DNA of 64,000 nt. It comes from Heterodontus francisci (lineage: Eukaryota). The stretch covers positions 682,001 to 746,000 of the forward strand of contig NW_027140825.1 in assembly GCF_036365525.1 (NCBI RefSeq). Direction: 5' to 3'. The position numbers and the translations under genes were made by a program. The notes below the pieces were generated by a model, which had not been told where the DNA came from, made no database searches, and was given only the letters and a program-made list of their open reading frames with translations. The stretch's first letter is position 1. Every line of letters starts with the position of its first letter. Below are positions 6,183 through 62,893 of this stretch, one piece after another.

Positions 6183-6954
6183 CACAGTGTTTGAGAAAGC
6201 GGATCCGCAGCTGCAAAAACCTGCAGCGGATGAACGGGAGTTCAGTGCTCATCTTCAACTGGCAGGGGGCAGCAGTAGATTGAAGCTGATTGTTCAGATC
6301 TATCTGTCCACCTGATTGTTCATCTCTCTGTCTCTCTATCTATCTATCTCTTTACCTGGTTATCCATCTCTGTCTCTCTATCTATCTAACTCTATCGTTA
6401 GGTAATTACAGTTTGTGAGAACTAATTAAACAGACTGCAGTAATGTAATGAATGACCATCTTTTCATAGATTTTCTATATATTGACCAGTAGATGATGTG
6501 GTTAGTCATCAATTATCTATCAAAATCCTCTATGATCTTCAATATCTGTATCACATCTGCCATTAACCTTCTCTGCTCTGAGGGCAGAAACCCCCAGCTT
6601 CTCCAGTCTCTCCACAGTAACTGAAGTCCCTCATCCCTGGTACCAGTCTTGTTAATCTCCCTCTAACCTTCACTACACAGAGGTGAACAACTCCCCAATG
6701 CACAGAAACTATCTCAGCTCAGAACCCTGAACCATCTGAGCGCTGTTTCACACTGTTCAAAGGCGAAACCCCTCTCCAGATAACTTCATCTCTGGGACAC
6801 CTGCCTCCTGACAGCGAGTTCAGAAGCTGCTGAAAACTCTTTACCCACTTTCACCTCAGACTCGAGTCACATTTAATCTGTTCTTCAAAGAAACCAGCAG
6901 TTCAGACCAGTGAACAATTTAACCATTTAACTCCCATTCACCACGGAGGTTCGG

Positions 6955-8519: not shown

Positions 8520-9112
8520 GTTCAGTGCTCATCTTCCAACGGCAGAGGGGCAGCAGTAGATTGAATCTCAGTGCTCATCTTCCAACGGCAGAGGGGCAGC
8601 AGTAGATTGAATCTCAGTTATCATCTTCCACCGGCAGGGGGCAGCAGTAGATTGAATCTCAGTTATCATCTTCCACCGGCAGGGGGCAGCAGTAGATTGA
8701 ATCTCAGTTATCATCTTCCAACGGCAGAGGGGCAGCAGTAGATTGAATCTCAGTTATCATCTTCCACCGGCAGGGGGCAGCAGTAGATTGAATCTCAGTG
8801 CTCATCTTCCCCCTGCAGGGGGCAGCAGTGGATTGAATCTCAGTGCTCAACTTCCACCGGCAGGAGGCAGCAGCAGATTGAATCTCAGTGCTCATCCTCC
8901 ACCGGCAGGGAGCAGCAGTTGATTGAATCTCAGTGCTCATCTTCCACCGGCAGGGGGCAGCAGTAGATTGAATCTCAGTGCTCATCTTCCACCGGCAGGG
9001 GGCAGCAGTAGATTGAATCTCAGTGCTCATCTTCCACCGGCAGGGGGCAGCAGTAGATTGAATCTCAGTGCTCATCTTCCACCGGCAGGGGGCAGCAGTA
9101 GACTGACTGCTC
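8520..9112. repeat. 45-bp minisatellite (13 units) directly after the V4 RSS
   Basis: Unit GATTGAATCTCAGTGCTCATCTTCCACCGGCAGGGGGCAGCAGTA; single copy after V3 (~6241-6284). Confidence 0.95.
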
Positions 9113-26965: not shown

Positions 26966-27627
26966 ATGCTGTGTACTGTTTACCTCCATCTACTGTTTCT
27001 GCTGCTCCCAGGTTACTGTTCCTACTTGGAGGGAAATTCAGGCCCCAGTTAATCAGCTTTGAGACACAATTCCTGTTGATATCGAAGGGCTCCAATCAGT
27101 TAGAGATTTACTGGTTTGGTTTTACTGTTGAGGACAAGTGTCGTTATTTAGCGCCACTGCAGTTGTGCCCAGCGATTCTGGGAATCAGCACATGACCCCT
27201 GTGCTGGGGCGTCAGCGGGTTGATCGACTGTAGTGTGCATCGGGAGGTTTACCATTAAAGCTCTCTCTCTCTCCTCATTGTGTCTGTTCTCTTTGACCCG
27301 ATCTGTTTCTCATGTTCCTCCACAGCCCGGTCCAGGAGCGCTCTCGTTACCCAGTGGGGGAACCGGCTGACGGTCGCAGAGGGGAAAACGGTGGAAATGC
27401 ACTGTTTCCAGAATGACACCAGCGAGAGCTACATGTACTGGTATCGCCAGCAGAGCGGAGCAGGGTTACAGCTCATAGTGACCTCGATTGGCACCTCTGA
27501 TTCCAGGCCTGAAGAGGGTTTCAAGGAGAGATTTAAAGCCACCAGACCCGATCTTAAAACCTGCAGCCTGAAAATACTGAGGGTGGATCAGACTGACAGG
27601 GCGGTGTATTACTGTGCTGCTAGTGAT
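26966..27627 (+). CDS. TRBV: TCR beta V segment V8 (CAAS family D), open; most D-proximal V
   Basis: Leader 26966-27011; V exon 27326-27627; RSS CACAGTG 27628-27634, 23 bp, TCAAAAACA 27658-27666. Confidence 0.95.
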
Positions 27628-28174
27628 CACAGTGATTCAAACAGGTGCAGGGCTGGGTCAAAAACATACCACCCTCTTATACTGTGAGTGTTAGAGAGAA
27701 AAACTCAAGTAAGCAGAGCTCATAAAGTCAGCTGTTCATTGATGAAACTTTGCAGAGTTTTCCATCAACTTTCAGAGTGTAGATATTTCCTGTTCAAATA
27801 TATTTCCCAATCTCCTTTCTAAGTTACTGTTGAATCTGCTTCCTCCATCCTTTCAGGCATCGCATTCCTGATCAGAATAACTCAACAAGTTAAAAGAAAA
27901 ATCTCTTCGTCTGTGCTGGTATTGTCTGTGTGAGTCTGCATCTCTATCTTTCAGCTTGCAAACAGCTCTCAAAGTGATAAATGGATGGCTTGGTTCTGCT
28001 GAAAGACAGAGCCATCAAAGTCCGGAAGGATAGATACATCTTATTATCTTAGAATATCACCCTGTACCGTTTAAACCGACCATTGTTGTGTTTATCACAA
28101 ATTTTACCCAATCTTGATCATCCGGTTAGCAATCAAGTTACTGCCACTTATCATCGACATTCCTAATCACAGAA

Positions 28175-30839: not shown

Positions 30840-31520
30840 CAGAACATTAGAAAATAGGAGCAGGAGTAAGCCATTCGGCCCGCCGTGTCTGCTCCTCCAC
30901 ATAATGAAGATCTTGAGGATCTGCTACCTTCACTCCACTTTCCCGCCATATTCCTACATCCCTGGATTCCCTTGGTGCCTAAAATCTATGGATCTCATGT
31001 CTTCAATTTTCTCAATGACTGAGAATTCCACAGCTCTCTGAATTCCAAAGAGTCATAACCCTCTGAGTGAAGACATTCGTCCTCATCTAAGTACGATAGA
31101 CGACCCCTTATCCTGAAGATTCGACCCCTTATTTCTAGGCTCTCCAGCCAGGGGGGAAACAGCCTCTCAGCGTGTCCCCTGTCAAACCCTCTCATCATCT
31201 TGTACGTTTCAAATGGATCACCTCTGATTCTTCCAGAGAATAACAGCCCATTCGACTCAATTTCTCCTCATAGGGCAGCCTTCTCCTCCGAGGAACCAAT
31301 TGAGTGAACCTTCGTTGCAACCTCCTCTAAGGCAAATACATGCTTCCGTAGATAAGGAGAGCAACACTCTACACAACACTAAAGGTGTGTTGTTACCAAA
31401 GTCCTAACTAGCTGCAGAAAGATTTCCTTACTCTTATGTTTCAAAGCTAACATGTTACTCGCCTTCCTAATTCCTTGCTGTACCTTGATGTAAAATTGCT
31501 CTGATTCATATACACGGGTC
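30840..31520 (-). mobile_element. CR1-like LINE fragment
   Basis: IRKASNML...LQLVRTLV and RGFDR motifs, decayed. Confidence 0.7.
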
Positions 31521-32699
31521 CCTCTTTCAGTATCAATAATGAGAAGAATGTTGTCATTGAAATTACTCACCCTGTTTCTCGACCACTTTTGCTGCAGCCC
31601 CAGATATTTTCAAATTGGACTGGAGTTCCCGACATCTACAACAGGCCATCATTTCTTTTCTTTAGCTTTTATGAAGTGGAAGACTTTTAATGGGCTCCTG
31701 ACGGTAAGATGTCCTCCAGCCTTTACGGATTCGAGATGCTGTGCACATTTCCAACCTCCATTATGCCAGTGGAGTCGAAAGTGAGTTCCTTAGCTGATGT
31801 GTTCTCTGATGATTGAAGCAAAATTGCAGGGACGCAGATCAGAAGCCTTTTCCACGTGCCAACAAGATAGTAACCCTTTACTTGCAGGGTCCAAGATCGA
31901 GCAGCGTGATAAAACTGCCGGTCGGCACCCTGTCTCGAAATTCCAATGTGAGGTGAATGCACATAACCAGGAATGAATTCCAACTGATGCATCTTAGATC
32001 CAATAGTGTTAGTGGAGGGGTTGCGGGGGTGGGGAGTTTCGCTCCATTTGTCACGATCTGGTCATCTTCGCACATGGCAATAAATAATCCGACATCTCAC
32101 TGAAAGTAGGTAGCATTGATCATACTCGGACTGCGACTCCTTTACGTCAGATGGATGATCCAAATGATGAATGGTGATGAAAATTCCCTCTGCGGCCGCC
32201 AGAGGGCGCGATCACTCGCTGAATGGAAATTCATTGTCTCTCCATCTGATCGAATCCTATTTGCAGCCACAAGTTCTGCGGAGAACTGCGCCATCTCCTG
32301 GTGGAAACTGAGAATGACCAGACAATCTGTTTTAGTTAAGTTGGTTTAGGGATGTCTATTGCCCCAGATAATCCTCCAGAATGCTCCTGTTATTCTCCGA
32401 AATAGTGGCTATGGGATCATTCCCGTCTGCAGTCGGGACCTCGTTTTAACATCTCAGCCAAAATAAAGAGAGTACCTCGGTGCTACACCTCCACACGGTG
32501 CAGCACTTTCTCTGTCCTGCACTGGGAGTGTCAGCCTAGATTTTATGCTTAAATCATGGTGCGGGGACTTAAACCCACAAACCTCTGACTCAGTGCCGAG
32601 GTACTCCCCACTAAACCACGGCTGATGTATAAAGACACATCAGAGGAAGTGGTCAGTCATACAGGGTGCTTTGAGGTTCTCCCATCTGTAGCGATGACG

Positions 32700-33900: not shown

Positions 33901-34638
33901 TTAACCTGGTGGTGATGTTACTGGACCAGTAATCCAACAGCCCGGGCTAGCGCTTTGGTAATCGTGAGTTCAAACCCCACCACAGCCGGCAGAAGAGTTT
34001 AAGTTCAATTGATTGAGGTAAAGTACCAGTGACATGAATTATGACCATGAAACGACCTGATTGTTGTTTAAACCCCCTCTGGTTCTCTAATGTCCCACAG
34101 GAGAACATTTGACCTACTTACCCCCTTACAACCTGAGTCCTGGTCCACACCAATGTAGTTATCACTTCACTGTTCTCCCAATGCCACTCAGTTGCATCAA
34201 GCGACGACAGGCAAGTGCTCAAAATTGGAGCAACAAAACACGAAATCCCGGTCGTGACAAATTCCAGTAATTTTTCTGTGACGAGTTTAGTTCTGTGTCT
34301 ACCCGTGGAAGAAATGTAAAGCGAAACTGCTGGCAGAGTCAGTTTCTGGAGGACATGCTCCAAGTCCCGGACCTCCTGTTCACAGGTCAGCACGATCGTG
34401 TAATTAGACAGCAGCGACTTTCATTTAGATAGTGACTTCACCGTCAGTCGAGAAAACGGCCGGAAAACGGTCCGGTTTGGAGGAGAGAGAGGTGGAGAGG
34501 GTTAGGGAGGGAATTGCAGAGCTGAGGCCGCTGTGAGAGGAAGGAACGGCCAAGAAATGAAGAATCGATCAGGATTAGTGGAGCAATAGCGCCACCTACC
34601 GCCCATCAATCGCCAATGCAGCCAACACTTGGTTAATT

Positions 34639-36927: not shown

Positions 36928-37070
36928 TTAATTGTGCTCCAAATGTCTAACGAAAGTTCAGCACCTGAGTCTCAACTGCCGTCACCAGGTGAAACCCTCG
37001 GGAGCCGTTTAAGCGGCGGGGACTTGTACGTTTTGCTTTCCTCTTTTTTGTATGAGTGTCTATCACTGTG

Positions 37071-37083
37071 GGGACAGCAGGGA
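37071..37083 (+). CDS. TRBD: TCR beta D segment D1 (GGGACAGCAGGGA)
   Basis: 5' 12-RSS: CTTTTTTGT 37043-37051, 12 bp, CACTGTG 37064-37070. 3' 23-RSS: CACGGTG 37084-37090, 23 bp, ACAAAAACC 37114-37122. Open in all 3 frames. Confidence 0.95.
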
Positions 37084-37608
37084 CACGGTGATAAAATCCA
37101 ATGCAACCTCCGTACAAAAACCTCACTCTGCACACCTGGTGGAGGATGAGCAGAAGAGCAGTGACAACAGAGTAAACGAGTCAACATGACCCTGGATTAT
37201 AACGGGAACTGGGCCCTTTTCATTATAAAGTTGTCTCAGAATGGTCCAGCTTTATAACCTAGAATGTTCCTCTGGAAAAGAGAATAACTGTGTGTCATTT
37301 GTGTGGAAACTGGTTACTCTTTAACCCTTAAACCCCACCCTGGTGTCCAGGGACCAATATTGATCCCTCAACCAACATCACAAAGAATAATCTGCTCATT
37401 AATCTCACTGCTGTTTGATGGGACTTCCTTGGTACAATATCAGTTGCTGCGTCTCCCTGTGGTGACCACTTCCTAAACAAACTGCTTCATTGGCTGTAAG
37501 CTGCTTTGTGTGTCCTGATTGTCTTGACCAGTGCTTCCTAAATGCTGAGCAGGTCACTTTTAGCAATCTGTTTCTGACCGGGTTGATGTAACGTGATCTG
37601 CTGACGTG

Positions 37609-51790: not shown

Positions 51791-51945
51791 TATGACCTTG
51801 CTCGTGAGCCACAAATGTAAATTAGGAGATATATAAATTAAGGAGATGTGATCTACAAACCCTTTCGAGGACAGGGTCCAAGTGTGATATAGGCAAGACC
51901 TGCACCTCGCCTTATGAAGTTTTGTTACAAGGGTCTCTCATTGTG

Positions 51946-62223: not shown

Positions 62224-62574
62224 GCGAAAACGATACGATTAGGCCTGCCAAAGTTACTGTCTTTGAGCCCTCTCCCGAAGAGATTAGAGAAAAGAAAAAA
62301 GCCACTGTGGTCTGCCTCGTCAGCGACTTCTACCCCGACAACATCAAGATCCACTGGCTTGTCGATGGCAAGGAGAAAGATGCCAATGACACGAACATTC
62401 ACACTGATCTCAATGCCATCCTATCAAAAGAAAATACATCTTACAGCATTAGCAGCCGGCTGAGATTCGACGCCCTAGATTGGGCTCGGTCCAAGAACGT
62501 TGAGTGCAGAGTAGATCTCTACACTAACGAATCAGTGCCGACAACAAGCAGTTCAACATTAGCTGTCAAAGCAG
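62224..62574 (+). CDS. TRBC: TCR beta constant region exon 1 (Ig C1-set domain)
   Basis: Polypyrimidine/CAG acceptor ending 62223; PAKVTVFEPSPEEIREKKKATVVCLVSDFYPDNIKIHW...YSISSRLR...W...ECRV, typical of Cbeta; phase-1 GTAGG donor. Confidence 0.97.
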
Positions 62575-62893
62575 GTAGGCACACTAGTGAGACCAATACC
62601 ATTTTATTTCAGCTTCAAAGAAATCAAAAGTTGCATTTATATAGCACCTGTGCTCTTATGAAAGTACGAATAAGCAAGTAGATGTATCAGTAAGTCAATA
62701 AATAAATAAATAATTCATGAAATAGAACAATATTGTCGTGTAAAGGGGAAGATATGGTTAAACACTCAATTAAAATGACTCTCAATATATTAGACTACAG
62801 TGCGGGACTCAATTGTGATAATCTACATTTACACAGTAATTTCATAAAATATTCTGATGCTGAATGTTTATTGATTTCTCTTTCTTTTCCCAG

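What the first reader, a model, noticed from the sequence alone, without database searches (positions are those of the whole stretch)
32190..32305. Pair of oppositely oriented CTCF-like motifs in the V-D gap (candidate intergenic control element)
Seen: in a non-repetitive, CpG-richer patch, CCGCCAGAGGGCGC (+, 32196-32209, exact core match) and CCAGGAGATGGCGC (- strand, 32288-32301, one mismatch) lie ~90 bp apart, 4.7 kb upstream of D1. Established: CTCF elements between V and D/J regions (Igh IGCR1, Igk Cer/Sis, Tcrb 5'PC) regulate rearrangement order and V usage in mouse. Inference: an analogous boundary in a cartilaginous fish would imply deep conservation or convergence of loop-based control.
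Basis: partly seen in the sequence, partly recalled or inferred. Interest (0 to 1): 0.7.

Follow-up and report, generated by a model that had tools for sequence, protein, structure and literature searches.

The report
CTCF pair in repeated TCR-beta units
Two strong matches to the binding site of the genome-folding protein CTCF face each other between the V and D gene pieces of a shark T-cell receptor beta unit that this genome assembly repeats 23 times, and they likely fence each unit off much as similar sites do in mice, although binding and function are untested.

Summary
Both motifs are real: 32193-32211 (+) and 32286-32304 (-), 4.8 kb before D1 of a TCR-beta V(n)-D1-J-D2-J-C unit. Site 1 fits a strict CTCF core that occurs once per ~600 kb in this genome and 16 times more often than its reversed control. 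The element is not a dispersed repeat. It occurs at 23 places, each paired with a D1; 22 have a V upstream and 21 a C downstream. Site 1 is intact in 23 of 23 copies. Site 2 is intact in 19 and deleted in one 4-copy lineage. Constraint is modest (P about 0.01-0.05) because the copies are only up to 9% diverged. The pair faces inward, whereas IGCR1 faces outward. The wider layout (forward V sites, reverse sites before D1 and behind C) resembles mouse Tcrb. No other species, binding or looping could be tested. This scan already noted the same element on paralogous copies (e1-9986377, e1-9833928). Verdict: a likely CTCF boundary, a new variant of a known kind; its best value is the natural deletion series among the units.

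The parts
32193..32211 (+). Site 1: forward CTCF-type motif, pointing toward D-J-C
   Evidence: 20.8 bits; strict core match; present in 23 of 23 units, 22 identical and one C>T that costs 0.7 bits
32286..32304 (-). Site 2: reverse CTCF-type motif, pointing toward the V genes; 93 bp start to start from site 1
   Evidence: 16.9 bits; identical in 19 of 23 units, destroyed by a 13-bp deletion in 4 related units
31520..32310 (.). Block without dispersed repeats that holds both sites; copied with the TRB unit
   Evidence: 23 full-length matches and no dispersed matches over this part among the candidates scored: 40 of 336, 23 of 23, 40 of 273
34587..34605 (-). Site 3: further reverse CTCF-type motif, 2.5 kb before D1
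   Evidence: 16.9 bits; intact in 16 of 23 units, weakened to 9.3-10.3 bits in 6, lost in 1
27328..27666 (+). Most D-proximal TRBV exon with its 23-RSS
   Evidence: Open V-set frame ending CAASD; RSS at 27628; a member of this family lies 4.2-5.3 kb upstream of 22 of 23 elements
37043..37122 (+). TRBD1 (37071-37083) with 12-RSS and 23-RSS
   Evidence: 23 D1-type matches in the genome
46368..46380 (+). TRBD2 with 12- and 23-RSS; J segments follow both D segments
   Evidence: 16 J-like frames plus further J at 51945, 57750, 58819
62226..62585 (+). TRBC Ig-domain exon
   Evidence: C1-set; the best single-domain PDB matches are TCR beta chains; 21 matches in the genome
8522..9106 (+). 45-bp tandem array of forward CTCF-type motifs just behind a V RSS (likely partner sites for sites 2 and 3)
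   Evidence: 12.9 copies; 10 hits of 13.0-19.5 bits; all 14 hits of 12 bits or more upstream of site 1 are forward

Best explanation
The pair is likely a CTCF-bound two-way loop boundary between the V array and the D-J-C part of each repeated TCR-beta unit. Shown: the motifs, their strands, their fixed V-D position in 23 units, forward motifs beside V genes, and reverse motifs before D1 and 7.5 kb behind the C exon. Inferred, from mouse Tcrb and Igh: site 2 (with site 3) would stop cohesin arriving from the V side and anchor loops to the forward V sites, holding many V genes near D1 and damping overuse of the nearest V. Site 1 would stop cohesin extruding upstream from the D-J-C side and pair with the reverse site behind C, closing a loop of about 37 kb that keeps the enhancer and the RAG centre within their own unit. 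Because the two sites face each other, the two loops would overlap by about 90 bp instead of abutting as at IGCR1. Site 1 looks like the indispensable half.
For: Motif strength beyond shuffles and genome background. All 3 non-array hits of 16.9 bits or more in 64 kb lie in the 9.4-kb V-D gap. One element per D1, 23 of 23. Across 18 of the 23 copies (5 identical or short ones dropped), the two sites have 1 variable column of 38 against 15.6% background (binomial P 0.013; 2.3% of window pairs at that spacing are as quiet), while the 73 columns between them have 19. The one substitution is among the 12 mildest of 57 possible. None of 5 CpGs in the sites changed, against 45 of 75 background CpGs (P 0.01). 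For scale, D1 with its RSSs, known to be functional, shows 5 variable columns of 80 against 11.7 expected. The strand pattern matches mouse Tcrb (PMC10772921, PMC5859386, passages). Skates have inward-facing CTCF sites at TAD borders and the cohesin genes (PMC10115646, passages).
Against: Site 2 is deleted, and site 3 weakened, in 4 related units that keep intact D1 signals and 99%-identical C exons. Counting that deletion as a change raises P to 0.052 (8% of window pairs). Each site alone is unremarkable: 15% and 6% of 19-column windows are as quiet, and 3 of the 50-column windows elsewhere are quieter than the one over site 1. The copies are at most 9% diverged, related, and possibly homogenised by conversion. 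The inward order is the reverse of IGCR1 and of Tcrb CBE1/CBE2. CpG retention could reflect low germline methylation for another reason. The weight matrix and consensus are recalled.
Confidence: 0.55

Rival explanations
1. The sites are real CTCF sites, but only site 1 matters (a one-way anchor for the D-J-C loop), or they have a general chromatin role with little effect on V(D)J choice.
For: Site 1 is kept in 23 of 23 units while sites 2 and 3 are lost or weakened in 4 and 7 of 23. In mouse, single deletions of 5'PC or CBE1 change V usage only moderately (bioRxiv 10.1101/2024.10.13.618029, section 6). A V-D gap of 9 kb with about 10 nearby V genes needs less folding than a megabase locus (inference).
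Against: Site 2 has no substitution at all in 19 units. The loss is one event in one lineage, and redundancy among many units could tolerate it.
Confidence: 0.2
2. The motifs arose by chance in one ancestral spacer and were multiplied passively by recent segmental duplication of the whole unit; they are unbound or neutral.
For: The whole V-D spacer, repeats included, is copied at 90-100% identity, so 23 copies are not 23 independent cases. Constraint is borderline once the deletion is counted. No cross-species support was obtained.
Against: Strict-core matches are 16-fold enriched over control in this genome, 0.016 are expected in this gap, three strong sites cluster here, and CpGs in the sites are untouched.
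Confidence: 0.17
3. The block is mainly a promoter or enhancer of a non-coding germline transcript in the V-D gap, and the CTCF motifs serve it (keeping it unmethylated or ending the transcript).
For: CpG-rich patch. Contigs of run X5, which is only guessed to be RNA and also covers the V exon, cover 31518-32270.
Against: One sample, contigs only, no strand, DNA carry-over not excluded. A CRE-like word and an E-box upstream of site 1 vary among the paralogs (motif names recalled). This role would not exclude a boundary role.
Confidence: 0.07
4. The two motifs are the ends of a decayed inverted-repeat transposon or a hairpin.
For: Opposite strands; 10 of 14 core letters alike (sequence).
Against: No inverted repeat joins the two sites, folding is no better than shuffles (z -0.46), and there are no dispersed copies.
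Confidence: 0.01

Closest known systems
Mouse Tcrb DJ-flanking CBEs (5'PC, CBE1, CBE2, CBE3)
   Same: Same receptor locus. V-side sites point to D-J-C; reverse sites lie a few kb upstream of D1 and downstream of C; one forward site lies in the V-D gap (PMC10772921, PMC5859386, bioRxiv 10.1101/2024.10.13.618029; passages and sections 3 and 6).
   Different: In mouse the forward CBE2 lies between CBE1 and D1 (outward pair) and 5'PC is 27 kb away across trypsinogen genes. Here the forward site comes first, 93 bp before a reverse site; the gap is 9 kb; the unit is repeated 23 times in the assembly. No sequence homology was tested or claimed. Binding is unshown.
Mouse Igh IGCR1
   Same: Two opposite-strand CBEs between the last V and the first D, with forward RSS-adjacent sites on V genes (PMC6439775, PMC11153149; passages).
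   Different: IGCR1 is divergent; this pair is convergent. Different locus.
Mouse Igk Cer/Sis
   Same: CBEs between V and J; Sis has one site in each orientation (PMC5859386, passage).
   Different: Four sites in two elements, no D segment; both Cer sites face V.
Multi-unit TRB loci of salmonids; cluster-type IgH of sharks
   Same: Several V-D-J-C units, some in opposite orientation (PMC10464911, passages); miniclusters (PMC6795676, PMC12227049, passages).
   Different: Salmonids have 3-4 units, against 23 D1 and 21 C matches here. Shark IgH clusters have one V and one J, whereas these units have many V, two D and about 19 J. A 2019 review calls shark TCR loci translocons. Older reports of several TCR-beta clusters in horned shark are recalled only; the paper was not held.

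Membership tests
CTCF-binding element | Core motif beyond chance | tested here: met
   (matrix and consensus recalled)
CTCF-binding element | Bound by CTCF and cohesin in vivo | not testable with these tools
   No ChIP, CUT&RUN or ATAC run among the 13 runs listed
CTCF-binding element | Sequence under constraint | tested here: inconclusive
   Among paralogs P 0.013 without and 0.052 with the deletion; CpG P 0.01; no other species available
CTCF-binding element | Upstream motif for zinc fingers 9-11 (optional) | tested here: inconclusive
   By eye only: a partial ATTC word 5-6 bp upstream of both sites; consensus recalled, not scored
IGCR1-type element | Lies between the last V and the first D | tested here: met
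IGCR1-type element | Two CBEs in divergent orientation | tested here: not met
   Forward then reverse here; divergent in IGCR1
IGCR1-type element | Blocks premature V-to-D joining and proximal V overuse | not testable with these tools
   needs repertoire or editing data
Tcrb DJ-flanking CBE set | V-side sites forward; reverse sites upstream of D1 and downstream of C | tested here: met
   14 of 14 hits of 12 bits or more upstream of site 1 in the window are forward, 10 of them in one array; sites 2 and 3 are reverse; a reverse site lies behind C in 19 of 19 units examined, of 21
Tcrb DJ-flanking CBE set | Reverse CBE1 followed by forward CBE2 nearest D1 | tested here: not met
   The only forward hit near D1 (36979) scores 11.3 bits and has 5 variable columns of 19
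Tcrb DJ-flanking CBE set | Loop anchors and enhancer insulation | not testable with these tools
   needs Micro-C, 4C or deletion
Dispersed repeat or transposon end | Copies outside the locus or terminal inverted repeats | tested here: not met
TRB locus | V-23, 12-D-23, 12-J signals; G-rich D; C domain closest to TCR beta | tested here: met
   (six multi-domain Ig chains rank above the TCR beta chains by summed score)

The most novel reading that the evidence does not exclude
This shark builds TCR-beta from a multi-megabase field of hundreds of V genes and some 17-23 D-J-C units, and each unit is a self-contained CTCF module: an inward-facing pair before D1 and a reverse site behind C confine RAG to its own unit. 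CTCF boundaries would then be what makes a cluster-type T-cell receptor locus workable, loop control of V(D)J joining would be as old as jawed vertebrates, and the four units lacking site 2 would be a ready-made knockout.
Probability: 0.3. Interest if true: 0.75.

Novelty: new variant of a known kind. Interest (0 to 1): 0.5.

Why it matters
CTCF control of V(D)J joining is known from mouse; my searches listed no paper on it in a cartilaginous fish. If these sites are bound, loop-based control of TCR-beta assembly is either ancestral to jawed vertebrates or was reinvented with a different site order. The repeated units make this testable without gene editing: 19 units with both sites and 4 without site 2 sit in one animal, so long-read repertoire data could show directly whether the site shapes V choice. 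The many units also raise the open question of how allelic exclusion and unit choice work with some twenty TCR-beta recombination centres.

Tried and rejected
Cross-species conservation: the genome search holds no relatives for this genome; the look-up of look-alike stretches found 0 windows; the only other organism listed among 13 runs (X6, share 0.05) matched through repeats and has no cover over 31468-32299, which is no evidence either way. No RNA holder is on record; X7 and X8 (guessed RNA) have no cover over the block, also no evidence. Rfam: one sub-threshold hit (E 0.17, 23.5 of 47 bits), taken as chance. No frame with more than 112 residues between stops in 31300-32500; these frames were not searched further. 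Hairpin or transposon ends rejected. The idea that the 4 units lacking site 2 are dead is not supported at D1 or the C exon; their J segments and expression were not checked. The reverse site behind C is identical in 19 of 19 units, but 16 of these are 98-100% identical there anyway, so the test is weak. In one search the D1 control holds 19 of 23 units (14 distinct): the 4-copy lineage was missed by the anchor pattern.

Full report
Observation. With a CTCF matrix recalled from memory, the 19-mers score 20.8 and 16.9 bits; 60 block-wise dinucleotide shuffles of the window give 0.05 hits at 20 or more and 0.18 at 17 or more. A better yardstick is the genome itself: the strict core consensus (recalled) has 10,088 matches in 6.01 Gb against 616 for the reversed control, one per 596 kb, so 0.016 are expected in a 9.4-kb gap. 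A forward core followed 60-90 bp later by a relaxed reverse core has 19 matches in the genome, all copies of this element, control 0.

Locus. The window holds eight V exons with 23-RSSs, some broken, then D1 (37071) and D2 (46368) with 12- and 23-RSSs, about 19 J segments and a C exon at 62226. The C exon is a C1-set domain whose best single-domain PDB matches are TCR beta chains. The element lies 4.6 kb after the last V RSS and 4.8 kb before D1. Earlier notes of this scan call the genome horn shark; I did not check that.

The unit is repeated. The 163 bp around the sites match 23 places, 23 of 23 candidates, on six contigs. D1 matches 23 places as well (40 of 44 candidates scored, the other 17 being D2-type), the C exon 21 and the proximal V family 33. 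Every element has a D1 4.4-17.9 kb downstream, 22 of 23 have the V 4.2-5.3 kb upstream and 21 of 23 a C 25-46 kb downstream; the three gaps are at contig ends. Over 2.35 kb the 23 copies give 17 distinct sequences, up to 9% apart. Some identical copies may be duplicated haplotypes, but single contigs carry up to six copies in both orientations. One V family alone has 641 first-look candidates, 40 scored.

Constraint among paralogs. Site 1 is present in 23 of 23 copies, with one C>T costing 0.7 bits. Site 2 is identical in 19 and removed by a 13-bp deletion in four related copies. In an alignment of 18 copies (five identical or short ones dropped; 3,855 columns), the sites have 1 variable column of 38 against 15.6% background (P 0.013), and the 73 columns between them have 19. 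Counting the deletion gives P 0.052. None of 5 CpGs in the sites changed, against 45 of 75 outside (P 0.01). D1 with its RSSs, as a positive control in 19 copies, has 5 variable columns of 80 against 11.7 expected, so the sites look at least as quiet as known functional DNA. Against this, each site alone is matched by 15% and 6% of windows, quieter stretches exist elsewhere in the spacer, the copies are not independent, and the four units without site 2 keep intact D1 signals. The evidence for selection is suggestive, not firm.

Wider layout. All 14 hits of 12 bits or more upstream of site 1 in the window are forward, 10 of them in one 45-bp array behind a V RSS. A third reverse site lies at 34587 (intact in 16 of 23), and a reverse 18.6-bit site lies 7.5 kb behind the C exon (G000:C779:751762) in 19 of 19 units examined. 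Mouse Tcrb has 18 forward V sites facing reverse 5'PC, CBE1 and CBE3, plus a forward CBE2 between CBE1 and D1 (PMC10772921 and bioRxiv 10.1101/2024.10.13.618029, passages). Deleting those sites shifts usage to proximal V genes and lets the enhancer spill over (same preprint, section 6 and passages). IGCR1 is a divergent pair (PMC6439775, passages). Skates show inward-facing CTCF sites at TAD borders (PMC10115646, passages).

Mechanism, inferred. Site 2 and site 3 would anchor loops to the forward V sites. Site 1 would pair with the reverse site behind C and enclose D1-J-D2-J-C in about 37 kb. Together they would form a two-way barrier, with the loops overlapping by about 90 bp. I put this at 0.55; real sites with only site 1 or a general role mattering at 0.2; passive passengers at 0.17; a promoter or enhancer role at 0.07. 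It works like the Tcrb DJ-flanking sites and like IGCR1 in position, but it fails the divergent-orientation test and should not be filed as IGCR1.

Limits. No other species could be examined, so deep conservation versus convergence is open. Binding, looping and effects on recombination are untested. Part of the window's V-D gap reads N.

Novelty. Five of my paper searches on shark TCR-beta organisation and two on CTCF in sharks listed no description of this element; the library lacks most subscription journals. A 2019 review calls shark TCR loci translocons (PMC6795676, passage); salmonids have 3-4 TRB units (PMC10464911, passages); early reports of several TCR-beta clusters in horned shark are recalled, not read. 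This scan already noted the same element on paralogous copies and the repeated units; those notes are not independent support. New here are the count of 23 elements paired with 23 D1, the paralog test and the four-unit deletion of site 2.

Noticed in passing
G000 contigs C407, C761, C779, C1317, C1675, C2233: 23 D1 and 21 C matches in both orientations among hundreds of V candidates over about 8 Mb: a many-unit TRB locus, far more than the 3-4 units of salmonids. Haplotype duplication is not excluded for the identical copies.
   Followed up: partly
L029-L032 (C2233:795029, C761:575928, C407:1254738, C407:1087152): One lineage of four units has lost site 2, weakened site 3, carries a 44-bp tandem repeat expanded to about 10-13 kb before D1, and has a D1 with one changed base but intact signals.
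   Followed up: partly
window 31518-32270: Contigs of run X5 (guessed RNA, one sample, no strand) cover this repeat-free block; their eight listed differences from the window match paralogs L023, L025, L026 and L028 at 8 of 8 places. A weak hint of a non-coding transcript across the element.
   Followed up: partly
window 8522-9106; single copy near 6256: 45-bp tandem array of forward CTCF-type motifs starting about 20 bp behind the nonamer of a V RSS, like RSS-adjacent sites of mouse proximal VH genes.
   Followed up: partly
L036 (G000:C779:776825-780781): An inverted V about 36 kb behind the C exon, followed in its own direction by a 45-bp array of six CTCF-type motifs (12.9-19.2 bits); either a TRBV30-like inverted V or the edge of the next, inverted V array.
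   Followed up: no
L061 (about G000:C779:663544 and 665790-666890): A forward site followed by an array of about 20 reverse CTCF-type motifs (51-53-bp period) some 11 kb upstream of the first V RSS found in the 20 kb before the window; it may mark the upstream edge of this unit.
   Followed up: no
G000 genome-wide: CCACTAGGTGGCGC and close variants make up a large share of the first 100 strict-core matches listed, suggesting a repeat family that spreads CTCF sites in this genome.
   Followed up: no
window 37071-58900: Two D-J clusters share one C exon (D1-J-D2-J-C), unlike the mammalian D-J-C-D-J-C layout; at least two J segments have an altered FGXG motif (51945, 58819).
   Followed up: no
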